Positions 17,201-40,593 of a DNA stretch of 64,000 bases are shown here, in pieces; positions within the stretch are counted from its first letter, which is position 1; each line of letters begins with the position of its first letter. The position numbers and the translations under genes are program-made. Under the pieces are notes generated by a model, which searched no databases, was not told where the DNA came from, and saw only the letters and a list, made by a program, of their open reading frames with translations. This DNA is from a virus. The stretch is from IMG/VR virus record IMGVR_UViG_3300025018_000100; one strand, given 5' to 3'.

Positions 17201-17331
17201 GAAGATATTTCGGTTACTAATATAGGAATAGTTCCGGCTATACCTATAAATCCATTTTTTCCTGTTATAGCAGCAGTGTCTCCATTAGAAACATCACCTA
17301 TACTATTAGCTGTAAAATATAAACTTGCCAT
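14248..17331 (-). CDS. Large tail-tip protein with fibronectin III-like domains (J C-terminal / T5 pb4-like)
   Basis: VRARN.SGRRS, VRVVPLN, IGKSAPPLNI, YFFKTKDTSSNES FN3 patterns; follows hub gene. Confidence 0.7.
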   Translation of the reverse strand: MASLYFTANSIGDVSNGDTAAITGKNGFIGIAGTIPILVTEISSIDMDSNVLLNVEGLNLLEDKNFSNHLLEVNDGFFNGLKGLDYISVPVNEKSNTGAALDFVGYNPSVTQYSSNILSYNISANTITFENEQSQGVGLFDVLPTPPFYAKLAQIIDTRFFTSKKFYITGSNKYRQVVNNVENLTGSNTFDLKIKPRTSNEITVWVDGNIEPKGAWVWDNLSNITLDISSGTRLLKTRVDYYTAPAVEIGDNISFYSENVYAVANVSYDISSPTYNVDLTTANFYEIELRDNIKANVSGLTFVNISNDIVGLIGNVDVVANSFSLDYNENVYTGNFNLANNQLYNIQVPLDFKPVTLSSDRVLKDVNPGISIVRARNMNSSGRRSPFVRKEVQINEIPIKKVDNLTISEQLYKDTSQGIIVRAVISFDAILDQEVSDYEVSFKLNSSSADLSTFNTVKLPASGIDSDGKIRYVINNLDRGRISAINSITVRVVPLNKGIRGITAEASQSIIGKSAPPLNIQGVAGGQEGQTLKFIWKVPTNSDGTVVDLDLNEIIIKRLGGIVDPADAASKWPIADPVAKVATPANSVTLSIGNYGVYTYFFKTKDTSSNESEEIRTLTISTQRPARIDAYKAWSEDEPSSNIITGQPNEAPFENNYPSFADSLGGLSSASSGLVDNANGSSSGWTVISGSPTDLLADDNATYTTQIRDVGSVITGSIIVTANGSQGITSTFNDLKEIILTGATETSPGDNVLVDVDFGGIGHILGFDNATAAVVSYNSYFRTLTSGGDAGNVYAIWNAGQYVGDDANANSWALIAGVINANAIALGDSYWANGMPTGTNLLSNINSSTSYELVNLEQFIDDTGQLTFQGQNGIIDTNLEYRYTTANPYYANGNVNALVFSDGVTNDGWKPYGGSTINFRWFQVRFNVQNSQPNQADYLLDKLNYSIDIENKIYTETITVTTSPQSIDFSNRQFIEPPNITLTLGSDNNYLPVLIPGWSKDGANINVYSNTGSAVTGVEVTVTAIGV

Positions 17332-20306
17332 TAATTAATTCTCTCAATAATTTTAGTAGATGAAGGACTAGCGTATTCAAACTCAGTTCTTAAATCTAGT
17401 GGATATGCCGAAGTATCAGTTCTAGCATCAATTTCTAATTCATATGTTGTAGACCCATCAGCTAACCTTCTAGCTCTTGGTATTACATTTAATATAGGTG
17501 CTGGTGGAGCAATTAATGGACTGATAGTATCTATATATTTAACAGGAATATAATTTATAAGAGTATCACTATCAATATAAACATTAGATACATATTCACT
17601 AGCAGAAATCTGAATTTGGTCATCACCTCTTCTAGTTAATTGATTAACTTTGAATAATTTCTCACCTTGATTGGTATAAAAATTAGATGGGTCAATCTCC
17701 CCAATGGACCATAAGTCTCCTTTTACTGGGACATTATTACTAGTCCAATCTATATTAAAACCAAAAGTACTAAAAGTTTTGGAGTCTGGAATAAATCTTT
17801 GACTTACCGCTACCTCTACAAGATCAATACCAGATTGAGTATTGCCTGTTACATCAGCAGAAAAAGTGTTTGATAATAAATATAAACTTAATCTATCAGA
17901 TTCCATATTAATTACTCGTAATGCGAGAGGTTTCGTATTACTAGTAAATACGCTCTGACTTAATGCAGGAGAGGTAAAATGTTCTAATATAACAGTATCT
18001 TCTCCTATAACAGAATTACTAGCCACCCTTCCTGCGTAACCCCAAGCAGTTCCCGGCATTCTTTGAGATACACTAATAACATCACCGATAGTTAAATTAA
18101 CCGCTTCACTAGGAACGGTGAAATCAATTTTTCTTCTAATATATTTAGTAGATGCAATTAAATATTGAGCAAACCTAATAGCTTGCCCTCGTCTAGTACA
18201 ACCAGTAGCTTCAATTTGTTTTACATTCTCAATTTGATTTAATTCTCTTAAAGATTGAGGATCGTCTACTCGTACTGTTTCTCTCTTATAATGGTTATTA
18301 GGTTCAATATAACTAATTTCTACTCCGGTAATTAATTCTGATTCCTTAATACCGCTAATATTAACACTATCTTTGATAATATTAGCTTCACTGAAGTGAG
18401 CTACAGGAACTTCGTCGGGTAAATCCACATTAAGAGTAATTTTACCCCCACTATAGAATAGTACTCCACGGAAAATAGCAGCTACCTTCTGAATAATATC
18501 AAAAACCTGAGCCTGTGAACTTAATAATAAATCACAAATAAATCTACGCTCTTTAATAGCAATACCTGCATTTAGCCCGATTAATGCCTCGTTTACGGCA
18601 GTAAATCTATTTCTAGGCTTATATCTAAATGTACTGTCACTATATCCTACTACCCCATCAAATCTGCCGGTTTTTGGATTTACAGCATCACAGTATTGAG
18701 CAATTTTATAGAATCTATATTTATCAATATTAGCTTCTGGTATACCTAAACCATAAGTTGAATTAGTTAAAATATCATATAAAATCCAAGCAGGATTCTG
18801 AGTCCAAGCATAACTAAAAGTTCCGTCCCAAAAACCTTTGTAAATTTCTGGGTTATCTTCTGTTAGTACGGTACTACCAGTAGCCTGAAGTCTATATCCA
18901 TTAGCTTGGTAGCTGTTAATATTTGTTCCTGTAGGATCATTTACTACTTCTATTTCTCGCCAATCCACTTGGAAAGTAGAACTATTAAAGTCGGGAATAA
19001 TAGGCTGATTATAATTACTAGGTACCTTACATAACATACCTTTTACAATAGAGGTAAATGTTGGAATACCGCCTCGATATTCTGCAACAGCTTTAATAGC
19101 ATAGCCGATTACAGCTGTTCTTGTGTAAGCTACATCTTCGTGAGTTATTTCATCCCAAGAAATAAACTGAATAGCATCCTGAATTTTAGAACTATCACTG
19201 TCATTACTAGTTTTTTCTATAGTAAATCTATGACCACTAGAGCTTTTTGAAGCTTCTGGAATGGGAATATCGACAGTATATTTATACTGTACGTTAGTTT
19301 TCCCATCAATAGTAATAGGTTTTTCTGCAATTATATTAGAACCCGTATTATCATATACAGTAATCTTAGTAGCTACACTCCCAGAAAAAACATTTCCTTT
19401 ATCATCCATAGTTTGTAAAGCATTAATAACGAATACAAATCTTAGTACATCAATTCTAGACACACTAGTGTTTTGTAATACTACAGCAGCTCTAGGAATA
19501 CCTTCTAAATTACCTTTCTTTAGAGTAACAGGGTTACTTAGAGATTGAGGTACGACTGTTTCTTCACCAAAAATGTTTAGAGGTGTTTGAGTTAATGTAC
19601 CTGTAGTACTATCAGTATAAAAATATTCAGTGTTAATAGTACCATCAGTACTTAGATTAAGTAAGTCATCAATGTTACCATCATTAATTTCAATATCCTG
19701 AGGACCGTTTGGGTTAATTCTATATACAGGACCTTCACTAAGAGCTACAGTAACAAACATAATATCTGTAGAAAACAAATTATTTGGACTTTCTACCCCA
19801 GGGGCTGCAGTAGCACCCTTTCCACCACCTTTATTATGAACTAAAATATTATTAGCTATATAAGTATGATTATTTTCTACGGTTAAATTATACACAATAT
19901 CAACTTCTTTAGTAGTTTTACTAGCAATAGCTGTCATAGTACCAGTTTCTTGTACTAAACAATCTCCCTCTTTAAGAAGGCTTGCAGGTAAAAAGTCACC
20001 ATCTGGGGTTAAAATCCAGTGGTTATCTGTTACTACTAATTCGGTTTTATTCCATAATTTAAATACATGTACAGTATGTTTCTGTTCATGAATGTGAATT
20101 TGTGTTACTCTTTGTTGAGTAAAATTACCTTCACTATCATAACTAGTAACGTAAGTATCAACTCTAATATCTTCAATAGCAAGTTGACCGTTAGCTGTAG
20201 ATATCAAAGTACCTTCAGCGAAGCAACCACCCTTCCCGCCATGAATAAATGGAACTTTTTTATCTGCTATATTGAAATAATATTTAAAATTGTGGTTATT
20301 AAACAT
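17331..20306 (-). CDS. Central tail hub / tip attachment protein J with N-terminal Hint domain
   Basis: LSEGPV, VKGMLCKVPSNY, WTQNPAWILYD, IAQYCD, GCTRRGQAIR typical of lambda J-like proteins. Confidence 0.9.
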   Translation of the reverse strand: MFNNHNFKYYFNIADKKVPFIHGGKGGCFAEGTLISTANGQLAIEDIRVDTYVTSYDSEGNFTQQRVTQIHIHEQKHTVHVFKLWNKTELVVTDNHWILTPDGDFLPASLLKEGDCLVQETGTMTAIASKTTKEVDIVYNLTVENNHTYIANNILVHNKGGGKGATAAPGVESPNNLFSTDIMFVTVALSEGPVYRINPNGPQDIEINDGNIDDLLNLSTDGTINTEYFYTDSTTGTLTQTPLNIFGEETVVPQSLSNPVTLKKGNLEGIPRAAVVLQNTSVSRIDVLRFVFVINALQTMDDKGNVFSGSVATKITVYDNTGSNIIAEKPITIDGKTNVQYKYTVDIPIPEASKSSSGHRFTIEKTSNDSDSSKIQDAIQFISWDEITHEDVAYTRTAVIGYAIKAVAEYRGGIPTFTSIVKGMLCKVPSNYNQPIIPDFNSSTFQVDWREIEVVNDPTGTNINSYQANGYRLQATGSTVLTEDNPEIYKGFWDGTFSYAWTQNPAWILYDILTNSTYGLGIPEANIDKYRFYKIAQYCDAVNPKTGRFDGVVGYSDSTFRYKPRNRFTAVNEALIGLNAGIAIKERRFICDLLLSSQAQVFDIIQKVAAIFRGVLFYSGGKITLNVDLPDEVPVAHFSEANIIKDSVNISGIKESELITGVEISYIEPNNHYKRETVRVDDPQSLRELNQIENVKQIEATGCTRRGQAIRFAQYLIASTKYIRRKIDFTVPSEAVNLTIGDVISVSQRMPGTAWGYAGRVASNSVIGEDTVILEHFTSPALSQSVFTSNTKPLALRVINMESDRLSLYLLSNTFSADVTGNTQSGIDLVEVAVSQRFIPDSKTFSTFGFNIDWTSNNVPVKGDLWSIGEIDPSNFYTNQGEKLFKVNQLTRRGDDQIQISASEYVSNVYIDSDTLINYIPVKYIDTISPLIAPPAPILNVIPRARRLADGSTTYELEIDARTDTSAYPLDLRTEFEYASPSSTKIIERIN
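19833..20225 (-). other. Hint (intein-like) domain, 131 aa, no endonuclease
   Basis: CFAEGTLI start, VTDNH block B, VYNLTVENNHTYIANNILVHN end; +1 residue is Lys. Confidence 0.9.
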
Positions 20307-21075
20307 TAAATTCTTCTCCTACCTTTACTATATCATTTTTACCGTGGTTCGCTGTCTTTACATACCCACTAACAAACTGACCACCTTGTCTATGCATACC
20401 ATAAATTAAGGCTAGACTATTACTACTGTCGGTACTATTAGTTAAACTACCAAACGCATCATTATCTTTTCTGTCTTGAATATCGGTTTCTTGTTCGGGG
20501 GCACTGGGTTTTTTTTGAAATAAAGACATAATACCTCCAAGTATTAGATTAATTCCTATTCCCATCAGTGTTTGTGCAGCATATCCAGCTACTCCAGTAA
20601 GCCCACTATATGCTGCAGCACTTTGAGCAAGAAAACTACCTCCCGCAGCACCTCCCGCAGCTCCTCCAACAGCCGCGCCTCCAGCTGCTCCCCCAGCTGC
20701 CCCAACTGCTCCGCCAGCCGCTAATAAAGCAGGAAGAGCAAAAAAAGCAAACGCAGCTATAGCTGCACCAAGTATAATACCACTTTTACCACCCCCACCA
20801 CCACTAATCGTAGGAACTACATATACTTCAGTAATATATTTTGGATTTTTTATTATAGTTGTTTCGGTAATCAGTTTCTTATCTTGATCTAAAATTAATA
20901 ATAAATCCTTACTAGTTTCGAAGTTACTAATATCAGTAAACTTTAAAATCAATTCTTCAAATGTACTTTTTAAAGCATAACTAAGACCTAAAAAATCAGC
21001 CACATCAAAAGTAAATTCTGATACATTACTTGTGTATTTATGAAGAGAGGTGTGAAAGTGTACTTTTATTTTCAT
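20299..21075 (-). CDS. Tail assembly protein I-like (ubiquitin-like domain + Gly/Ala hydrophobic segment), paralog 2
   Basis: MoaD-like N-terminus ending VVPTISGG; C-terminal AFGSLTNSTDS...IYGMHRQGGQFVSG. Confidence 0.8.
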   Translation of the reverse strand: MKIKVHFHTSLHKYTSNVSEFTFDVADFLGLSYALKSTFEELILKFTDISNFETSKDLLLILDQDKKLITETTIIKNPKYITEVYVVPTISGGGGGKSGIILGAAIAAFAFFALPALLAAGGAVGAAGGAAGGAAVGGAAGGAAGGSFLAQSAAAYSGLTGVAGYAAQTLMGIGINLILGGIMSLFQKKPSAPEQETDIQDRKDNDAFGSLTNSTDSSNSLALIYGMHRQGGQFVSGYVKTANHGKNDIVKVGEEFNV

Positions 21076-21813
21076 TTAAAATTCCTCTCCTACATTTATC
21101 ATATCAGTCTTACCATGATTTTTAGTTTTTATATATCCGCTCACAAACTGACCACCAATTCTGTGCATTCCATATATAATACCTATCGCGCTTCTACTAT
21201 CTGTACTATTAGCAAGACTACCATAAGCATTATTCTCTGTTCTAGCCCCAGAATCAGGTACTTTTTGCTGGTTATTATTAATTTTAGGTTTTGGAGCTAA
21301 CCCAGAGAGTACCAACGAAAAACCTATACTTAAAGCTAATTGCCCTAAAGTAGTTAAACTTACTGTAGTAGCAGCGGCTGCTGCGGCTGCTCCACTACCT
21401 GCTGCAGCGATAGCACCGCCACTAAGAGTAGCACCACCAGCTGTTGAGCTAGTAGCTAATAGACCTAAACTCGCACCACCTGTAAAGAAAGATAATGCAA
21501 CTGCAGCAATAATTATAATACCGGCAATTAGACCACCATTACCGCCGCCACCATTTATAATAGGTACTAACGTAATCTCTTTCTTAGGTTTAAAAAATAC
21601 TTCATCCATAGGTACTACTTTACCATCACTTACTAGTAAAGCTTCTTCTTTAAAGTTATCTTTAACTACTGTTCTAAAATAGTTTTCAAGGTCTGGAAAC
21701 ATATTAGCTGCTGCTGTAACAGCATCACAATAACTTGTTACGTTTACTGTAATACTATCTACACCATTAGTAAATTTAGTTAATAGCTTATGAAATCGTA
21801 AAGTTACCTGCAT
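21076..21813 (-). CDS. Tail assembly protein I-like, paralog 1
   Basis: N-terminus ending LVPIINGG; C-terminal AYGSLANSTDS...IYGMHRIGGQFVSG. Confidence 0.8.
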   Translation of the reverse strand: MQVTLRFHKLLTKFTNGVDSITVNVTSYCDAVTAAANMFPDLENYFRTVVKDNFKEEALLVSDGKVVPMDEVFFKPKKEITLVPIINGGGGNGGLIAGIIIIAAVALSFFTGGASLGLLATSSTAGGATLSGGAIAAAGSGAAAAAAATTVSLTTLGQLALSIGFSLVLSGLAPKPKINNNQQKVPDSGARTENNAYGSLANSTDSRSAIGIIYGMHRIGGQFVSGYIKTKNHGKTDMINVGEEF

Positions 21814-21823
21814 CTATAAACCT

Positions 21824-22195
21824 CTATTTAAGGTGTCGAACCTCAAAAGGTTCATATCTTAACATTTTTAGTTTTTTATCGTACCAATAGATAAAGAACT
21901 TATCATTCCATCCCACAATAAATTTATAATTATCAAATGTTGTGCTGGCCATATCTTGTTCACTAGGAATAGGATTTTCATCACCAGGGTGACTATGAAA
22001 TATACCCCAACAAGTGTCCTCATGGTCTAATAATGCTACAGGGTCTAATACAAAACTAGTTTTAGGATATAGGCTAATATTTTTACAAAATACGTATTTA
22101 AAATCTTTAGTTATTAATCCGCACGCTTCTCTTGGGTAATCTGCGTGAGCATGTCTACCCATATCATCTTTTAATTTGTTATAAAGCTCTTCCAC
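21824..22195 (-). CDS. JAB/MPN metallopeptidase (lambda K N-terminal-like)
   Basis: PREACG, FHSHP...PSEQD JAMM motif. Confidence 0.9.
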   Translation of the reverse strand: MEELYNKLKDDMGRHAHADYPREACGLITKDFKYVFCKNISLYPKTSFVLDPVALLDHEDTCWGIFHSHPGDENPIPSEQDMASTTFDNYKFIVGWNDKFFIYWYDKKLKMLRYEPFEVRHLK

Positions 22196-22611
22196 CTGTA
22201 ATGTCCTTCAGTGTATTGTTTGTAATAGTTACCATATGATCCGATCCAGCTATTTCTATCAATAGTAATTTGAAGTAATTTATTATCTCCAACGTACATT
22301 GCCACATGATTTGGCATATTTGTTGCGCCTAGAGTCATTACTATAATATCAAAAGGCCTCATTTCACCATTATGTATTTCAACCCAGCCATATTTTTCAT
22401 CTCTAAACATATTAAGAGGGTGGTGTAAATCTGGATGATTGTACCAATCATCATCGGTTATATTACAAAAGGTACTTGTACTATACCATATATCAATATC
22501 ATGTTCTTTCTTTAGTACATATTTGATTAAATTACCACAATCAATACCGGTTACTGGGTCTTCCCCTAAATGTTTATAGGGTAATCCTTTATATTTTTCA
22601 TACCAAGTCAT
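22171..22611 (-). CDS. NlpC/P60 peptidase (lambda K C-terminal-like)
   Basis: GLPY...GIDCGNL...NHVAMYVG. Confidence 0.85.
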   Translation of the reverse strand: MTWYEKYKGLPYKHLGEDPVTGIDCGNLIKYVLKKEHDIDIWYSTSTFCNITDDDWYNHPDLHHPLNMFRDEKYGWVEIHNGEMRPFDIIVMTLGATNMPNHVAMYVGDNKLLQITIDRNSWIGSYGNYYKQYTEGHYRWKSFITN

Positions 22612-23023
22612 AGTGTCTATAACATCCTATTAATATTTTTATATCATCTTCATTAAGTAATTTAAAAGTTGCGTATCCGTTAAAAGGTAAATGAATATAA
22701 GTACCTGCTTCAATATACATTCCAAAATGAACATGTCTCATATTTTTAGTTCTAAATATAAGAATATCATATTCTTGGATGTCTCGCAAATTAATTTTTT
22801 TCCAATTATTTATTTCGTTAATTATAGTTTCATAAGGTACAATTTGATACCATTTTGCATCAATATTAGTAACACCATCAGTACCTGCTCTACTTAAACA
22901 TTCTTTTAAATCTATATTTAGAAATCTATTATATATGTCAACAATTAAGGTTACGCAATTCATCCCCTGCCATTCATGTTTTATCTTAATGTAATGTTCA
23001 TATTTTTTTAAACCAGTGCTCAT
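22598..23023 (-). CDS. Second NlpC/P60-like protein
   Basis: GMNCVTL...YDILIF...HFGMYI...YIHL. Confidence 0.75.
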   Translation of the reverse strand: MSTGLKKYEHYIKIKHEWQGMNCVTLIVDIYNRFLNIDLKECLSRAGTDGVTNIDAKWYQIVPYETIINEINNWKKINLRDIQEYDILIFRTKNMRHVHFGMYIEAGTYIHLPFNGYATFKLLNEDDIKILIGCYRHYDLV

Positions 23024-24179
23024 AATAAGGAAAAACCTCTATAAAATTTTCATTTCTTATACTATCTAATTTATCTGTATAATTTTTAAATTTAGATAGA
23101 AGATGACTATTATCTTGATTGTTCATAAATTTTAACCATACTAATATATGATTAACCTCATTTAAATGTAATCTTTTATCGATAGATAAATATTCTTTAT
23201 ATTTTTTATTTATAATTCTCTTTTCTTCAATAGGTAAACATTGAATGCTTAAATAGTTAGGAAAATATAATAAAGTGCCGTTAAAAAATATATCGTGAGT
23301 TTTGCACCAGTCGATCAACCTTAGCATACTATGTATGCTGTATATGTTAATAACACTACTAATTGTAGTTATATATTGTTTAACTTCCAAGCAATTAGCT
23401 TCAAACTGATCCCAGTTTAGTCCTTTTCTACTATATTCTGCTTCTTTGCCCATACCGTCCATACTAGGCCATAATTCAACTTCGTTGAAGTGGCTCCATA
23501 GTTCAGGTAAATCATATTCTTTATAGCGAAGTACACTAAGATTAGTATTATATGTAAGTCTAAGATTGGTATATCCATTACTAATTAAATATTCTAGTAA
23601 TTCATAATGTTCATCCATCATTAGCGGCTCTCCGCCCGCAAAATAAATTTCTTCTACATTATCTATAAATGTCGGAATGTCGTCCCACAAAGCTGGTTTA
23701 TTCCAATTTTTATGAGGACCTTTGAAATTTGTTTTACCAGTTAATTTCTGCCAATCATTATACCATTTAGTACTACTTTCAGGCCCGCACATTCTACACC
23801 TAAAATTGCAAACATTACTGAATCTAATATCAAAATAAGAAATGGGCACATCTACACTACCGTCAGGGTTAGTTTTATCCCAAAGGTCATGTTTATGTAC
23901 CCATTTTTTATTTTGATCGGTTCTGAAACTAGTCCCGCGTTGAGCCGCTTCGCGGCTATGGCAGGTTAAATAACATTCTCTAGGTATCTCATTATTAATA
24001 TATTGACTTCTAATGTGTTTCATTGGATTGCCATTCCAAACAGCATTATAGCTATCTTCACTAGTACCTAATTCTGTTTTTTCTTTTTGGTTCTGCAAGT
24101 AACAACAAAGTCTATATTTACCTTCTACATCTCCGTGTATATGTATCCAAGGAAGGATACATTTGTTATTATCAGTCAT
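22998..24179 (-). CDS. Radical SAM protein with N-terminal Cys-rich (twitch-like) domain
   Basis: CILPW...RLCC N-terminus; CNFRCRMC; FAGGEP; YNTN; SMDG; GAGGGG RBS before ATG 24179. Confidence 0.9.
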   Translation of the reverse strand: MTDNNKCILPWIHIHGDVEGKYRLCCYLQNQKEKTELGTSEDSYNAVWNGNPMKHIRSQYINNEIPRECYLTCHSREAAQRGTSFRTDQNKKWVHKHDLWDKTNPDGSVDVPISYFDIRFSNVCNFRCRMCGPESSTKWYNDWQKLTGKTNFKGPHKNWNKPALWDDIPTFIDNVEEIYFAGGEPLMMDEHYELLEYLISNGYTNLRLTYNTNLSVLRYKEYDLPELWSHFNEVELWPSMDGMGKEAEYSRKGLNWDQFEANCLEVKQYITTISSVINIYSIHSMLRLIDWCKTHDIFFNGTLLYFPNYLSIQCLPIEEKRIINKKYKEYLSIDKRLHLNEVNHILVWLKFMNNQDNSHLLSKFKNYTDKLDSIRNENFIEVFPYYEHWFKKI

Positions 24180-24365
24180 TATTCCCCTCAAAATTTAAAT
24201 ACAATTATGACGTTTTATAAAAAATAGCAAACTTCGTTTGTAAATTTATTGAATTAAAATTACGTATGTCCCAAATGGGCTACACGAGCCGTGCTAGCAT
24301 AACGTAAGACAATATAATTTTATTATGATAATTCAATAATAATAAAACTACGTTTTACATAAATA

Positions 24366-24423: not shown

Positions 24424-25917
24424 TTACCTAGGGATAGTTCTACCAGTTCCTGGGAAGCCTCCGAAATGAATATTGTTATTTCTAAGAGTACATGCTTCAA
24501 AGTTTTTAGCACAAACATCTTCTTGTACAGTAAGTACTTCTGCATTATTAATATCAAAGTATCCATTAGCTGTACGATTTTGTGTATCTCCTGGAATTAA
24601 ATCAGAACCATTATCAGGATATTGACATTCGGGACCTTTATATGACCAAGGACAGCTATTCTTAAAATACTTTCTTTTTGGCAGCTGTAGTTTGAAATAT
24701 TGAAGCCAACTTACTACTGCGAATACTGCAACAATCGGATTTAAAGTATCTAAACTATCAATTTTAAAGTTATCAACTACGAAACCGTCTTGGTCAGCTT
24801 CTTCATTTACGATGTACAGCTTATCCCCAGCTTTTACGTTTGGAACTTCTGTATCGGTGATTAAGTTATCTCCGAACATATTAATAATCTGATAAGTTTC
24901 TTGATTAGAATTACTACGTACTATGTCGCCAATTCTATAAGGAAGTGTAGATGCTACAGTAATAAGATTAGGAGTAGTTTCTCTAACAATGCTATATTCA
25001 GGCCATACGTCAAGAAAGTTAGCGTAAGTACTTTTAATTTCGATTACTCCGCCTAGTAAGTCTCTAGTATCAATTTTTAGTTTATTCCAAGTATCTCCAA
25101 GACTAATAGTTGTATCATAATCAAAAGCGACGTTGTATCCGCCTCTGCTAGCTGCTATATTTTCATCAAAGTCTGGATGTTCTGGATTAGTACGTGGATC
25201 AATATTGGTAACATATTCACCATTAACAATAGCCGTATTACTATTACTGCTATTATTTCCTACAAGAAAAGGGTTTTCTACAAGAGTAGTAATTAGATTA
25301 TCAAAGTTACTAATAGTAATCTGAATTTCATTTACTTGCCCACTACTGTCTATACCAATATCACCACTTTCGATAGGGTAAGGAAGAAAACTTTCTCCAC
25401 CAAATAAACATTCATACTGAATATCACTAGCTGTTTCACCCCTAATCTCGGCAAATCTGAAAGGTAAACCATCGGGCCAAGGATATCCTGTACCCTCTCC
25501 TGTAGGATTTCCTGCTTGATTTGGTGGGTACCATTCTCCTGGGTAGTATAAAGTGTAAAGTCTAACTGAGGGTCTTTGAACAAAAGCGTTCTTTTCCCTA
25601 ATAAAATTACTATTTTGAATGTTAGTTATCTCACAACTACTAACAACAGTGGTTGCATTATAACTAGGCTCAAAATAGGGTTGTTGATTGATATCGACAC
25701 TTCCACCACTTGTAGTAATAAAAGTAGTATTGCAGGTTTCTGCAATATTATACTCTTGTAGTACGTTATCTACTTTAACCTTAATAGTGTTATTCTCAGG
25801 ATTAACGTTAGCAATAAATCCTTCAGTACCGCTTGTGATACCAATAATATTGTTACCTTGTGTAAATCCTACAGTGCTATTAACTGTTAAAATGTAATCG
25901 TATGTACGTGTTGTCAT
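24424..25917 (-). CDS. Minor tail protein L-like (Fe-S tail tip protein) with insertions
   Basis: YLPYPI-like core; LPKR...CPWSYKGPECQY...CAKNFEAC...FGGFPG four-Cys C-terminus. Confidence 0.85.
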   Translation of the reverse strand: MTTRTYDYILTVNSTVGFTQGNNIIGITSGTEGFIANVNPENNTIKVKVDNVLQEYNIAETCNTTFITTSGGSVDINQQPYFEPSYNATTVVSSCEITNIQNSNFIREKNAFVQRPSVRLYTLYYPGEWYPPNQAGNPTGEGTGYPWPDGLPFRFAEIRGETASDIQYECLFGGESFLPYPIESGDIGIDSSGQVNEIQITISNFDNLITTLVENPFLVGNNSSNSNTAIVNGEYVTNIDPRTNPEHPDFDENIAASRGGYNVAFDYDTTISLGDTWNKLKIDTRDLLGGVIEIKSTYANFLDVWPEYSIVRETTPNLITVASTLPYRIGDIVRSNSNQETYQIINMFGDNLITDTEVPNVKAGDKLYIVNEEADQDGFVVDNFKIDSLDTLNPIVAVFAVVSWLQYFKLQLPKRKYFKNSCPWSYKGPECQYPDNGSDLIPGDTQNRTANGYFDINNAEVLTVQEDVCAKNFEACTLRNNNIHFGGFPGTGRTIPR

Positions 25918-37605: not shown

Positions 37606-40593
37606 TTAAGCGCTACGTAATACAGACGCTAGGCTGTACTGGCTACTTAGGGTTGGAGCAGTTGAAGTACCTACAGTTGTAAGTGGCTTCATATCGAAAC
37701 GAGTGCTCATGTAAACCGCAGTTACCTGCTGACGAGGATTATACTCGCTTTCAATTTCCATTGCACGACGTTCTGCAATCATAAATCCTGGCTTGTATAA
37801 TAATAGACCAATATGATCATCATTTGCACCTGCAGCGTCTAAGAACTCTGTAATCATTACAGGCATTCCATAAACAGCACCGATGCTACCAGTTAGATAG
37901 GTTGCGTTTGGTCCGTACTTATCAACGGTACGGAAATCAGAGGTCTGAACAAGTTCATTATAACCTTCGATTGTTGTTAAGTAAACTAAATCGTCACCTA
38001 ACTGTAATCCGTACTTACCAAGTTTAGCGCGTGCAGCAGCAATATTTGCTGGAGTAGCTGCTGTAGAAGCTCCACAGTTAACTCTTAATCCTGCAACATC
38101 ATTAGCAAGAGTAACAAGACCCTTCATAACAGATGCATAACCAGCACCAGGAGTAATTGCGTTAGTTGGGCTAGCATTAAACCCTGTTAGGGTTCCATCA
38201 CCACGAAGTAGTGACTTATCGATAGCACGAGCAACACGACGAGCAGCATCAGCTCTTAGGAAGTCAATAAGAGGAAGAACTGTATCTTCCTGCTCATCTT
38301 TCGCTAAATGAGTGGTCGCCATCCATTTGTGTGGAGTAAAGCGAACTGATGATATAGTATTCTGGTTACTAGTTGGAACACGAGTAGCATCATAAGCACC
38401 AGTCGCAAAGGTTCCGTTGGCAAACTGTGCTACATCACCGTCAACATCTTCATTAGTTACAGGAACATCGAAGCTCTTAGCATCTACTTGAATGCGTCGG
38501 AACATGGGCACGATAACTAATTGCTGTTGCATTTCTTCATAGACAGTGCTAGAAAAGTTGCTTAAGAACTGGTCAACAGTTGTAATGGCTTTCATTTTAG
38601 AACCAAAATTGGTGTCAAAAACTTGCTCGTTATTCTTACCAAGAGCCTTAGCAAGAAATACAGCATTAGCCATTTCTTTATCTGTGAATTGAGCCTTACG
38701 TGAAGGATCGTTATTTTGATTGTAGACCATCTTAGAATTTTGTAAGGCATTAACAAGCTCTTTCTGCTTCTTAATTTCTTGCATTAGTTCTTCAACTTGG
38801 TCGGATAAGCTTGTATCACCACGAATTTCTTCGTTATCAGCAGCTTTATTCATTGTTTGTTCGGTCTTATTTAGTAAGTCCTGAACTTGAGGTTCCTTAA
38901 CTTGAGCTACAGAATTTGGAGCATTCTCCGCTTTAGCGCCGGTGTTAACTACCATTGGTTCATCAACATTTTGAGTAGGCATATCTTTTTTCTCCTCTTG
39001 ACTCTCTGCCTTATGACCGTTTAAGATTAACTGTAAATTACGGTCGTCAGACTCGGGTAATCCCTTGAGAGCCTTAATTTTTTCAACTACTCTATTTGCT
39101 AGAGCGTAGTTAGTATCATTCCAATCTTTAAAATTGGTTGCAATTAAATTGTATGTGTTGTTTAAAGTAATTTGCTGTTCTTGTGTAGTAGCAGAAGACT
39201 TTAAATTATTTAGATCGATTTCTTTTAGATTTACATGTTCTACGAAACCTTTCTTAATTTCTTCTCTTTGTTTGTCTGTTAGGTTAGTTACTTTAGCGTG
39301 TTTAACCATTTTAATATCAAACTTAGTACCAATATCCCAGGTGTTAATTACAGAAAGATCAGTTGCTTTGATAGAAACAGCCTCTCCAATAACTTCACCT
39401 TCTACACTTACAGGTTCAACAATAAAGTTAGGGTTTGTTTGAGTAGCAATATTTTTAATCTTGTGTCGAGAACCATCAAGTTTGACAAAATCATCAGCTT
39501 TAAGTTCTCCGGTTGACATACTTAGTAAGTTAACAAAAGGAATAGCCTTATATGGGTCTGCTTGAGTCTCTTCATCTACGGTTTCTTTGATATTAGAATC
39601 TGTAGGAACAGAAGTATCAGTTTTAGTATTAGGTTGTTCTACTGCTGAGTTTTCGTTTTTATCTTCAACGTCAGCTTTTGTAGATTCACTATCATTAGTT
39701 TTTCCTTCTGTAGGAATTTCTAATTTAACTGTTTCTTCTGCCTGATTCATATCTTTAACTTCTGTTTCAGAAGCTTTATTTTCGGAATTAGGCATATTTT
39801 TATTCTCCTCGTCGGTAAGTAGTTCTTCAATATTATTGAAATTACTTTCAATTTCCATTTCTGGTAGTTTTGAAGAGTCCTTCCAAATTTGAACATCATG
39901 ACTATGACCATCTTCAGCAGATTTAATTTCATAATTAACTACATCGTGGTTATGTTTTTGGCCATGAGAGGTGTAAGTTGCGGTACCGTTACCATCCGCA
40001 TCTACTTCAAATGTATGATAGTGACCATCTTTATGAATTTCAGAAATTCCGGCCTTAACTACTGTTGTATCTTCGTTTTTATCAACAACTTCTTCTAAGA
40101 ATGATTTATAATCCTCATTGTTGTCAAAACTTTTACGAACACTAAACAGACTATCTTGATTACAAGGTACACTTACTATACTAATTTCTAGTAACTCTAG
40201 TTCTGTAATATAAGTGGTATCTGTTTTTCTATCATATCTAGCACGTTTTGGTCGAAATCCTACACTAAAAGCTTTTAAAGCACCGTCTCGAACTAATGTT
40301 CTAGTACCGTACTGTTTTTCAGCAGCTTCGCTGATATCAGCTTCTACGTGAATGCCCTTGTTATCAAGACGCATTTTTGTAACTTTACCAATCGGTTGAT
40401 CGTGTTTATGTTGAAGAAGAAGCACAGGGTTTTTTAAGTATTCCTGAGCACCTTTTGTCCAAGCGGAAGGAACAATGACGTCACCGGTTCTATCTCTTGA
40501 GACAGTATTTGCATATCCTGAGATACTTAAACCTTTACTTTGTTCAGTAGATTTAATTTCCATACTATCTAAATAGAGGGTTTTCTTTGACAT
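37606..40593 (-). CDS. Fused HK97-type prohead protease - scaffold - major capsid protein
   Basis: ISGYAN...DRTGD, LLQH, AFSVGF, LEISIVSVPCN protease motifs; C-terminal capsid (ARAKLGKYG, GAVYGMPV, IESEY). Confidence 0.9.
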   Translation of the reverse strand: MSKKTLYLDSMEIKSTEQSKGLSISGYANTVSRDRTGDVIVPSAWTKGAQEYLKNPVLLLQHKHDQPIGKVTKMRLDNKGIHVEADISEAAEKQYGTRTLVRDGALKAFSVGFRPKRARYDRKTDTTYITELELLEISIVSVPCNQDSLFSVRKSFDNNEDYKSFLEEVVDKNEDTTVVKAGISEIHKDGHYHTFEVDADGNGTATYTSHGQKHNHDVVNYEIKSAEDGHSHDVQIWKDSSKLPEMEIESNFNNIEELLTDEENKNMPNSENKASETEVKDMNQAEETVKLEIPTEGKTNDSESTKADVEDKNENSAVEQPNTKTDTSVPTDSNIKETVDEETQADPYKAIPFVNLLSMSTGELKADDFVKLDGSRHKIKNIATQTNPNFIVEPVSVEGEVIGEAVSIKATDLSVINTWDIGTKFDIKMVKHAKVTNLTDKQREEIKKGFVEHVNLKEIDLNNLKSSATTQEQQITLNNTYNLIATNFKDWNDTNYALANRVVEKIKALKGLPESDDRNLQLILNGHKAESQEEKKDMPTQNVDEPMVVNTGAKAENAPNSVAQVKEPQVQDLLNKTEQTMNKAADNEEIRGDTSLSDQVEELMQEIKKQKELVNALQNSKMVYNQNNDPSRKAQFTDKEMANAVFLAKALGKNNEQVFDTNFGSKMKAITTVDQFLSNFSSTVYEEMQQQLVIVPMFRRIQVDAKSFDVPVTNEDVDGDVAQFANGTFATGAYDATRVPTSNQNTISSVRFTPHKWMATTHLAKDEQEDTVLPLIDFLRADAARRVARAIDKSLLRGDGTLTGFNASPTNAITPGAGYASVMKGLVTLANDVAGLRVNCGASTAATPANIAAARAKLGKYGLQLGDDLVYLTTIEGYNELVQTSDFRTVDKYGPNATYLTGSIGAVYGMPVMITEFLDAAGANDDHIGLLLYKPGFMIAERRAMEIESEYNPRQQVTAVYMSTRFDMKPLTTVGTSTAPTLSSQYSLASVLRSA

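What the first reader, a model, noticed from the sequence alone, without database searches (positions are those of the whole stretch)
19833..22195. Shared VPxIxGG processing signal on three tail proteins plus a non-splicing Hint domain
Seen: both gpI-like proteins end their ubiquitin-like domain in VPTISGG / VPIINGG, and the hub protein J starts with a short leader ending VPFIHGG, then KGG, a 131-aa Hint domain (C...HN), then KGGGKG. A stand-alone JAB peptidase is adjacent. Known: lambda gpI carries a Ubl domain, gpK a JAB domain, and JAB enzymes cut after GG; canonical splicing needs C/S/T at +1, but here it is Lys, as in bacterial intein-like domains. Inference: one JAB enzyme matures three substrates. 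Hint C-terminal cleavage would give J the same KGG... N-terminus as JAB cleavage, or the Hint thioester could ligate the GG-ended leader onto an amine in a ubiquitin-like way.
Basis: partly seen in the sequence, partly recalled or inferred. Interest (0 to 1): 0.75.

Follow-up and report, generated by a model that had tools for sequence, protein, structure and literature searches.

The report
Ubiquitin-tail-like propeptide and BIL domain on phage J
In an uncultured phage, the tail hub protein J starts with a short leader that copies the Gly-Gly tail of the ubiquitin-like domains on the two neighbouring gpI proteins, is predicted to fit the active site of the adjacent JAB peptidase, and is followed by a self-processing intein-like (BIL) domain, which suggests one peptidase matures three tail-tip proteins.

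Summary
VP.I.GG occurs three times in the window (0.01 expected): at the end of the N-terminal domain of both gpI paralogues and at residues 18-24 of J. The gpI domain folds as a MoaD/ThiS-like beta-grasp. The JAB has an intact JAMM motif. The Hint domain (C28-N158, +1 Lys) matches type A bacterial intein-like (BIL) domains best.

New here: about 50 related metagenomic phages share the gene order. Outside one leaderless subclade, J carries the leader with or without the Hint; P19, I21 and G23 are invariant, matching the invariant P-x-[IFL]-x-G of gpI. The Hint is old, diverges in step with J, keeps both junction chemistries and never has C/S/T at +1. A control-checked complex model puts leader residues 18-27 in the JAB catalytic groove.

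Best reading (about 0.5): the leader is a ubiquitin-tail-like propeptide removed by JAB. The BIL, inserted in the Gly/Lys linker, excises itself by cleavage or aminolytic splicing. JAB-gpI processing was predicted in 2006; the J leader and a BIL in J appear unreported. No cleavage is shown. BIL-driven, ubiquitin-like ligation has a ciliate precedent (BUBL), but Hint-less relatives with the same leader argue against it. Earlier notes of this scan cover only this same stretch.

The parts
21824..22195 (-). Stand-alone JAB/JAMM metallopeptidase, 123 aa, GTG start
   Evidence: Pfam Prok-JAB 7.5e-12, above the cut-off. E23, H67, S68, H69, S78 and D81 are invariant in 20 homologues.
21076..21813 (-). 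gpI paralogue I2, 245 aa: ubiquitin-like domain, Gly-rich and hydrophobic middle, TAPI-C end
   Evidence: phrog_32 tail assembly protein 3.2e-19, matching the C-terminal part. It aligns with I1 and 26 homologues.
21547..21567 (-). VPIINGG, aa 83-89, at the end of the I2 ubiquitin-like domain
   Evidence: P and the first G are invariant in alignment A1.
20299..21075 (-). gpI paralogue I1, 258 aa
   Evidence: phrog_32 3.5e-20. In the AF2 model, residues 1-91 are mostly confident (10-residue block means 59-93) and the rest is low.
20797..21075 (-). I1 ubiquitin-like (MoaD/ThiS-type beta-grasp) domain, aa 1-93, ending VPTISGG (20797-20817)
   Evidence: Top structural matches are MoaD, SAMP1, CysO and Urm1, with Z from 8.9 (rmsd 2.4, 77 aligned) down to 6. 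They cover residues 1-90/93 and run up to the end of the target chains.
17331..20306 (-). Tail hub / central fibre protein J, 991 aa
   Evidence: phrog_31 8.6e-114. Pfam Phage-tail_3 and FNIII-A_GpJ. About 26% identity to lambda J.
20226..20306 (-). J leader, aa 1-27, with VPFIHGG (20235-20255) then KGG: the proposed ubiquitin-tail-like propeptide
   Evidence: P19, I21 and G23 are invariant in 16 leaders, with and without the Hint. The leader has low pLDDT on its own. In the complex model, leader residues 18-27 contact JAB E23, H67, H69, S78, D81 and strand 46-50.
19833..20225 (-). Type A BIL / PT-HINT domain, C28 to N158, 131 aa, no endonuclease
   Evidence: Pfam PT-HINT 1.3e-10. Best solved sequence match is the BIL 2LWY at 5.7e-9. 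AF2 10-residue block pLDDT means run 84-96 across the domain. Foldseek ranks 2LWY and then Tetrahymena BIL2 first. Catalytic residues are invariant.
19815..19832 (-). KGGGKG linker after the Hint (+1 Lys), lying where lambda J begins (lambda J starts MGKGSSKG)
   Evidence: The +1 residue is K or G in every Hint-bearing homologue.
22171..23023 (-). Two tandem NlpC/P60 genes (22598-23023 and 22171-22611) upstream of JAB. Together with JAB they are the split counterpart of lambda gpK.
   Evidence: Pfam NLPC_P60 2.4e-5 and 4.3e-10. The gene order is conserved in relatives.

Best explanation
This is the tail-tip assembly module of a large uncultured siphophage.

Both gpI paralogues begin with a MoaD/ThiS-like ubiquitin-like domain whose last strand ends in P-x-[IFL]-x-G-G. 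J begins with a disordered leader of about 24 residues that ends in the same motif. Both are followed by a Gly/Lys-rich linker.

The adjacent stand-alone JAMM peptidase binds this tail as ubiquitin-type tails are bound: as an added beta-strand, with the Gly-Gly at the zinc site. It then cuts at or next to Gly-Gly. This releases the ubiquitin-like domains from I1 and I2 and the leader from J. Mature J then starts with a Gly/Lys stretch, as lambda J does natively.

The Hint is a type A bacterial intein-like domain that sits in the linker between the JAB site and the J body. It removes itself in two steps. Cys28 forms a thioester, and Asn158 cyclises to cut the C-terminal junction. After that, either the thioester is hydrolysed (cleavage, which I favour about 60:40) or the freed alpha-amine attacks it (aminolytic splicing).

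Because the leader is thrown away anyway, exact splicing is not needed. That would explain why a +1 nucleophile is absent in every lineage.

Shown: the anatomy, folds, conserved catalytic residues, conservation of the leader, and the predicted docking. Inferred: every cleavage event and their order.
For: 1. The motif is unique to these three proteins, with 0.01 expected.

2. The I1 N-domain is a MoaD/SAMP-like fold that ends at the Gly motif. P88 and G92 are the only invariant residues of that domain in 28 gpI proteins.

3. The JAB catalytic residues E, HxH, S and D are invariant.

4. About 50 IMG/VR relatives share the order M-L-(rSAM)-P60-P60-JAB-I(-I)-J. J carries the leader both with and without the Hint, and P19, I21 and G23 are invariant.

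5. An HMM built from the gpI tail finds J leaders as its first non-gpI hits, always at J residues 13-26. These hits are weak: the best E-value is 0.07.

6. Complex model of JAB + Zn + J(1-32): score 0.94, best of 3 controls 0.02. The mark was reached by 58 of 80 solved complexes and 2 of 110 mismatched pairs. The runs agree in at least 90% of contacts, and partner pLDDT is at least 73. The counts hold only roughly, because my own alignments were used and a zinc rode along. Leader residues 18-27 touch E23, H67, H69, S78, D81 and strand 46-50.

7. Lambda J starts directly at the Gly/Lys stretch and has no leader. In lambda virions gpI is seen only from residue 101 or 135 onward, after its VPRVAGA motif at residues 91-97, and gpK is absent.

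8. The Hint matches BILs best. C1, the block B T-x-N-H-W, the block F His and the terminal VHN are invariant, while overall identity falls to 29-38% between clades, in step with the J body at 47-54%. The +1 residue is K or G in all.

9. JAMM enzymes are reported to cut linear ubiquitin-like fusions, for example DRJAMM on MoaD-MoaE (PMC8832034 abstract).
Against: No proteolysis is observed for any of the three substrates, here or, as far as I found, in lambda.

The lambda data fit disorder of the gpI N-domain as well as they fit its removal.

The leader-to-gpI similarity is at motif level only. The HMM E-values are 0.07 or worse, and the window's own leader did not reach the list.

The complex score can reflect likeness to solved JAMM-ubiquitin tail complexes rather than a real substrate relation. 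The analogous JAB-gpI model could not be run, so there is no positive control.

One subclade (L040-L052) keeps JAB and gpI but has no J leader. Another (L023-L027) has only a shortened form without the Pro. The leader is therefore dispensable for this kind of tail.

Invariant Cys1 and block B show that the N-terminal junction chemistry is under selection. Simple C-terminal cleavage alone would not require that.
Confidence: 0.5

Rival explanations
1. The leader is a docking tag, not a cleavage site. It binds the JAB groove, or another partner that reads the ubiquitin-like tail. This brings JAB and the NlpC/P60 proteins to J, or times J's entry into the tail-tip complex. The leader stays on J, or is lost only together with the BIL.
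For: The complex model supports binding, not catalysis. gpK-type proteins are needed for assembly but are absent from lambda virions, as a chaperone would be. The leader is disordered on its own.
Against: All JAMM catalytic residues are invariant, and the Gly-Gly is modelled next to them. A retained leader would require true splicing in Hint-bearing phages, which lack a +1 nucleophile. Lambda J functions with no leader.
Confidence: 0.2
2. The shared motif is unrelated to JAB. The leader is a short structural strand or a folding aid for the J N-terminus. It resembles the gpI tail only because both are a beta-strand followed by a Gly-rich linker. JAB acts on gpI only.
For: The profile similarity is weak. 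The L040-L052 clade has JAB and gpI but no leader. The TAPI-C domain of gpI also contains a P-[VI]-P-x-I-Y-G stretch that fits the loose pattern, so such strings do recur in these proteins.
Against: The same three positions (P, I/F/L, G) are the invariant ones in both the leader and the gpI tail. The exact motif has 0.01 expected occurrences. Docking is specific, at 0.94 against 0.02 for the controls.
Confidence: 0.15
3. BUBL-like conjugation. The BIL thioester at Gly27-Cys28 is attacked by a lysine side chain, either the +1 Lys or a Lys of the Gly/Lys linkers of J or gpI. This attaches the Gly-Gly-ended leader by an isopeptide bond without ATP. JAB acts as the isopeptidase that edits or removes it.
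For: Tetrahymena BIL2 does this with a ubiquitin-like domain (PMC8616854), and it is the second-best sequence and structure match to this Hint. The +1 residue is Lys in most lineages. Cys1 and block B are invariant. JAMM enzymes are isopeptidases by ancestry (PMC1779556).
Against: Hint-less relatives have the same leader, JAB and gpI. One Hint clade has Gly at +1. The N-extein is a 27-residue disordered peptide, not a ubiquitin-like fold. No acceptor is identified.
Confidence: 0.07

Closest known systems
Lambda and T1-type tail assembly proteins gpI (TAPI, ubiquitin-like domain) and gpK (JAB + NlpC/P60), Iyer, Burroughs and Aravind 2006 (PMC1779556)
   Same: The same gene neighbourhood lies between L and J. 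gpI has a MoaD/ThiS-like N-domain with a conserved C-terminal Gly, a Gly-rich linker and a TAPI-C domain. A JAB is predicted to release the ubiquitin-like domain. Lambda gpI has VPRVAGA at the matching place.
   Different: Here JAB is a separate 123-aa protein placed after two separate NlpC/P60 genes. gpI is duplicated. J itself carries a copy of the tail motif on a short leader, which lambda J lacks and which the 2006 paper does not describe in the passages read.
Type A bacterial intein-like (BIL) domains, e.g. the Clostridium thermocellum BIL, PDB 2LWY (Pfam PT-HINT)
   Same: Hint fold, Cys1, C-terminal His-Asn and no +1 nucleophile. 2LWY is the best sequence match (5.7e-9) and the best fold match (TM 0.86 on the target, rmsd 1.7). 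Known members splice by aminolysis, but mostly cleave (PMC4031507).
   Different: The host is a phage tail hub protein, and the N-extein is only a 27-residue leader. I found no report of a BIL in a J protein. Activity is untested.
Tetrahymena BUBL loci: the BIL2 domain flanked by ubiquitin-like domains (PDB 6Y75, 6TMM)
   Same: A BIL sits directly after a Gly-ended ubiquitin-type tail. Sequence match is 1.5e-8 at 28-30% identity, and it is the second-best fold match. It provides ATP-free transfer of the N-extein to a lysine.
   Different: There is no ubiquitin-like fold before the BIL here, only the tail motif. The leader also exists without the BIL in relatives. Conjugation here is pure speculation.
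Archaeal and bacterial JAMM enzymes acting on MoaD/SAMP-type proteins (HvJAMM1-SAMP1, DRJAMM on MoaD-MoaE)
   Same: A small stand-alone JAMM protein is paired with a MoaD-like ubiquitin-like protein ending in Gly-Gly. Cleavage of linear fusions after the tail is reported (abstracts of PMC4443979 and PMC8832034).
   Different: Those systems serve sulfur transfer or protein modification in cells. This one is in a virion assembly module, and one proposed substrate has no ubiquitin-like fold at all.
Canonical class 1 mini-inteins
   Same: Same fold and same blocks A, B, F and G.
   Different: The +1 residue is Lys or Gly, never Cys, Ser or Thr, in every homologue. The position after the block F V-Y, which from my own knowledge is usually Asp, is N, I or T here.

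Membership tests
gpI / TAPI (lambda tail assembly protein I) | N-terminal MoaD/ThiS-like beta-grasp ending in a conserved Gly | tested here: met
   In the AF2 model, residues 1-91 are mostly confident (10-residue block means 59-93). MoaD, SAMP1, CysO and Urm1 are the top hits, with Z from 8.9 down to 6 over residues 1-90/93. P88 and G92 are invariant.
gpI / TAPI (lambda tail assembly protein I) | Gly-rich linker, hydrophobic middle and TAPI-C domain; gene located next to J | tested here: met
   phrog_32 matches aa 146-245 of I1 and aa 141-234 of I2. The sequence and the gene order fit.
JAMM/MPN+ (JAB) metallopeptidase | E...H-x-H...S-x-x-D zinc and catalytic motif | tested here: met
   E23, H67, H69, S78 and D81 are invariant in 20 sequences. 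Pfam Prok-JAB scores 45.6 bits against a cut-off of 25. There are eight residues between the second His and the Ser, rather than the seven of the textbook motif.
JAMM/MPN+ (JAB) metallopeptidase | Zinc-dependent cleavage after a Gly-Gly tail | not testable with these tools
   Only a docking model is available.
Type A bacterial intein-like domain (BIL / PT-HINT) | Hint fold with an N-terminal Cys and a C-terminal His-Asn | tested here: met
   PT-HINT scores 42.1 bits against a cut-off of 27.7.
Type A bacterial intein-like domain (BIL / PT-HINT) | No Cys, Ser or Thr at +1 | tested here: met
   The +1 residue is K in the window and in most relatives, and G in one clade.
Type A bacterial intein-like domain (BIL / PT-HINT) | Autocleavage or aminolytic splicing | not testable with these tools
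   Inferred only from the invariant catalytic residues.
Canonical splicing intein (class 1) | Nucleophile (Cys, Ser or Thr) at +1 | tested here: not met
BUBL-type ubiquitin-dispensing BIL | A ubiquitin-like domain immediately N-terminal to the BIL | tested here: not met
   The N-extein is 27 residues with pLDDT of 43-67 and no beta-grasp. Only the tail motif is present.
BUBL-type ubiquitin-dispensing BIL | A lysine acceptor forming an isopeptide bond | not testable with these tools
   The +1 Lys and the Lys-rich linkers exist, but no product can be observed.
Lambda gpJ-type tail hub / central fibre | Hub domains plus FNIII-A; homology to J | tested here: met
   phrog_31 8.6e-114, Pfam PF13550 and PF24801. 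tblastn to lambda J gives 3e-37.

The most novel reading that the evidence does not exclude
The leader plus BIL is a minimal, ATP-free ubiquitin-like conjugation device inside a virion assembly line. The BIL thioester hands the Gly-Gly-ended leader to a lysine of a tail-tip protein, and the JAB is its isopeptidase. This would be a phage counterpart of the ciliate BUBL system, and a prokaryotic-virus example of E1/E2/E3-independent tagging.
Probability: 0.07. Interest if true: 0.9.

Novelty: new variant of a known kind. Interest (0 to 1): 0.6.

Why it matters
How gpK-type proteins act in tail-tip assembly is still open. gpK is required for assembly but is absent from lambda virions, and the fate of the gpI ubiquitin-like domain has not been shown.

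This clade offers a cleaner test. The JAB is a separate small protein, and one candidate substrate is a 24-residue peptide on J rather than a folded domain. If JAB cuts it, the hub protein itself is matured by a ubiquitin-type peptidase that reads only a tail motif. That would bear on how JAMM enzymes recognise substrates and on the pre-eukaryotic history of ubiquitin-like processing.

The BIL domain shows how an intein-like element can persist for a long time without being able to splice canonically, when it sits in front of a cleavage site in a disposable propeptide. It is also a compact (131 aa) candidate self-cleaving module with Gly and Lys flanks.

Tried and rejected
- Megablast of the module against cultured phages found no match.
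- tblastn of J residues 1-219 against cultured phages found only unrelated Hint domains in helicase and other genes, and no J with this N-terminus.
- The J body reaches lambda-like J proteins at only about 26% identity. No cultured model phage is therefore at hand.
- No whole genome is held for the window, so I could not look for other Hint, JAB or ubiquitin-like genes outside the 64 kb.
- I tested whether the tape measure protein might be a fourth substrate. Lambda gpH is cut in a Gly-rich region by an unknown protease. Neither the window's tape measure nor lambda gpH contains P-x-[IVLFM]-x-G-[GSA], so I dropped this idea.
- Homology of the leader to the gpI tail could not be shown. The tail HMM gives J leaders E-values of 0.07 or worse, and the window's own leader is not listed. 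I kept it as motif-level resemblance only.
- One gain of the Hint or several could not be told apart. The deep forks of the J tree are unresolved and the careful tree search did not finish.
- A literature search for a Hint or intein in J or tail-tip proteins found nothing relevant.
- No tRNA genes were found in the window.
- Sequencing runs: no RNA holder is listed. The only full holder is an aquifer metagenome run that may be the source itself. No reads were laid.

Full report
**1. What is there**

The window is a phage structural region. It encodes terminase, portal, a protease-capsid fusion, major tail protein, a 1700-aa tape measure, M-like and L-like proteins, J and fibres.

Between L and J, on the minus strand, lie these genes in order:
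- a radical SAM/SPASM gene;
- two NlpC/P60 genes;
- a 123-aa JAB;
- two gpI paralogues, I2 and then I1;
- J.

I2 has VPIINGG at aa 83-89. I1 has VPTISGG at aa 87-93. J has VPFIHGG at aa 18-24, then KGG, then Cys28 to Asn158, then KGGGKG. VP.I.GG occurs nowhere else in the window, and 0.01 copies are expected by chance.

**2. The parts, tested one by one**

The gpI N-domain was missed by Pfam and PHROGs, which match only the C-terminal TAPI-C part. An AlphaFold2 model of I1, built on 28 homologues, gives residues 1-91 mostly high confidence (10-residue block means 59-93), with a beta-beta-alpha-alpha-beta-alpha-beta order. The last strand is residues 83-90, and the Gly run that follows is disordered.

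A search of 48,161 solved chains that does not rely on Foldseek puts MoaD, SAMP1, a MoaD-related protein, CysO and Urm1 on top. The best Z is 8.9 (rmsd 2.4, 77 aligned). The alignments run from residue 1 to 90-93, up to the end of the target chains. The motif therefore sits where these sulfur-carrier and modifier proteins have their terminal Gly-Gly. In the 28-protein alignment, the only invariant residues of this domain are P88 and G92.

The JAB passes Pfam's threshold and has E23, H67, S68, H69, S78 and D81 invariant in 20 homologues.

The Hint passes Pfam PT-HINT. Its best solved sequence relative is the bacterial intein-like domain 2LWY (5.7e-9), followed by Tetrahymena BIL2 (1.5e-8). The AF2 model is confident for residues 28-158 (10-residue block means 84-96), but not for the leader (43-67) or for the linker behind the Hint. 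Foldseek ranks the same two BILs first, ahead of true inteins and Hedgehog.

**3. Relatives**

A scan of IMG/VR with J gave 63 loci. The 52 closest share the gene order M-L-(rSAM)-P60-P60-JAB-I(-I)-J. A protein search added 13 more Hint-bearing J proteins.

Four results follow.

(a) The leader does not depend on the Hint. Hint-less J proteins, such as those of L017, L019, L034, L046, L049 and L036, start with a leader of similar length ending V-P-x-I-x-G-[GSA], followed by K-G-G repeats and then the J body. Across 16 leaders, P19, I21 and G23 are invariant. These are the same positions that are invariant or hydrophobic in the gpI tail.

(b) The Hint always sits in the Gly/Lys linker, 3 to 9 residues after the motif. 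It always begins G|C-F and ends H-N, and it is followed by K (most lineages) or G (one clade). It is never followed by C, S or T.

(c) The Hint is old and inherited with J. Between the three Hint-bearing clades it is 29-38% identical, where the J body is 47-54%. Within clades the figures are 58-88% against 60-85%. C1, F2, the block B T-x-N-H-W, a block F His and the terminal V-H-N never change. Both junction chemistries are thus under selection. The deep branching of Hint-bearing and Hint-less clades is unresolved.

(d) One subclade (L040-L052) lacks the leader and both NlpC/P60 genes but keeps JAB and gpI. Another (L023-L027) has a shortened leader.

**4. Does JAB see the leader?**

A control-checked complex model of JAB (20-row alignment), zinc and J residues 1-32 (16-row alignment) scored 0.94. 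The best of 3 controls scored 0.02. This mark was reached by 58 of 80 solved complexes and 2 of 110 mismatched pairs. The three runs agree in at least 90% of contacts, and the partner's pLDDT is at least 73. The counts hold only roughly, because my own alignments were used and a zinc rode along.

Leader residues 18-27 touch JAB E23, H67, H69, S78, D81 and the strand at 46-50. G23 lies against D81 and residues 47-49. The contact set includes the invariant JAB residues E23, F48, P52, H67, H69, S78 and D81.

This supports binding in the manner of a ubiquitin tail. It does not show cleavage. Because JAMM-ubiquitin complexes are solved, part of the score may be likeness learned from them.

**5. Comparison with lambda and the literature**

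Iyer et al. 2006 described the ubiquitin-like domain of TAPI and the JAB plus NlpC/P60 of TAPK. They predicted that JAB releases the ubiquitin-like domain at its last Gly.

Lambda gpI has VPRVAGA at residues 91-97. Virion structures resolve gpI from residue 101 or 134/135 onward, do not see the N-domain, and do not find gpK. That fits removal of the domain, but it also fits disorder.

Lambda J starts at M-G-K-G-S-S-K-G, that is, where the linker begins in this phage. It has no leader. Removing the leader, or cutting at the Hint's C-terminal junction, would give this J a lambda-like N-terminus.

Type A BILs have a C-terminal His-Asn, lack the +1 nucleophile, and splice by attack of the freed alpha-amine on the thioester, with cleavage products dominating. 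Tetrahymena BIL2 instead transfers the preceding ubiquitin-like domain to a lysine without ATP.

**6. Reading**

The most economical account is that the leader is a propeptide carrying the recognition tail of the gpI ubiquitin-like domain. One JAB trims I1, I2 and J. The BIL is a resident element in the linker that frees itself.

A BIL that cannot splice canonically is tolerable exactly because what lies in front of it is discarded. Conversely, its long persistence without a +1 nucleophile is mild evidence that the leader is not needed on mature J.

The invariant Cys1 and block B remain only partly explained. They fit aminolytic splicing, coupling of the two junction reactions, or the low-probability BUBL-like transfer.

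The rival readings are a non-cleaved docking tag, a JAB-independent strand, and conjugation. They are listed with their tests in the rival explanations.

**7. Verdict**

- The gpI-JAB half is known as a prediction.
- The J leader, its conservation, its predicted fit to the JAB site, and a type A BIL in a tail hub protein are, as far as I could find, new.
- Nothing here is experimental.
- The phage is uncultured. The only run that holds the stretch in full is an aquifer metagenome, which may be the source itself.

Noticed in passing
window 22998-24191 (-): A radical SAM/SPASM gene sits inside the tail-tip module, between the L-like gene and the NlpC/P60 genes. It is conserved at that place in many relatives but not all. 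Its target is unknown. The neighbouring gpL family binds a 4Fe-4S cluster in lambda.
   Followed up: no
window 22171-23023 (-): Two separate NlpC/P60 genes precede a separate JAB. In lambda, one protein (gpK) carries JAB and then NlpC/P60. Both copies keep a Cys and a His in the expected motifs, by eye.
   Followed up: partly
proteins P0004, P0016, P0018, P0024: The closest non-phage relatives of this Hint (about 29-35% identity) are bacterial proteins with two to four tandem Hint copies after a signal-like N-terminus. The copies are separated by K-G or K-G-G-G, and are followed by a membrane segment and a Tim44-like domain. The Gly at -1 and Lys at +1 therefore seem to be traits of this BIL subfamily.
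   Followed up: no
loci L040-L052: This subclade lacks the J leader and both NlpC/P60 genes but keeps JAB and gpI, whose tail reads T-P-V-F-F-G-A. L023-L027 have one NlpC/P60 gene and a shortened leader. A link between the leader and NlpC/P60 is possible, but it rests on only two or three lineages.
   Followed up: no
window 24424-25917 (-): The L-like protein is 497 aa, against 232 aa in lambda. Pfam Phage_tail_L matches best in its last 120 residues. Relatives reach 500-718 aa.
   Followed up: no
window 37606-40593 (-): A single 995-aa ORF matches head maturation protease and major head protein families over its first 315 residues. The rest of this large ORF was not assigned here.
   Followed up: no
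L036:2064-7308: In this relative the J gene is in two pieces, of 83 aa and 1468 aa, with the break after the leader region. This could be a frameshift, a sequencing error or an insertion.
   Followed up: no
gpI C-terminal domain, e.g. L003:357-1055: The TAPI-C domain has its own conserved P-[VI]-P-x-[IV]-Y-G stretch. It fits the loose motif pattern and is picked up weakly by the tail HMM. In the window's I1 and I2 it has lost the prolines.
   Followed up: partly
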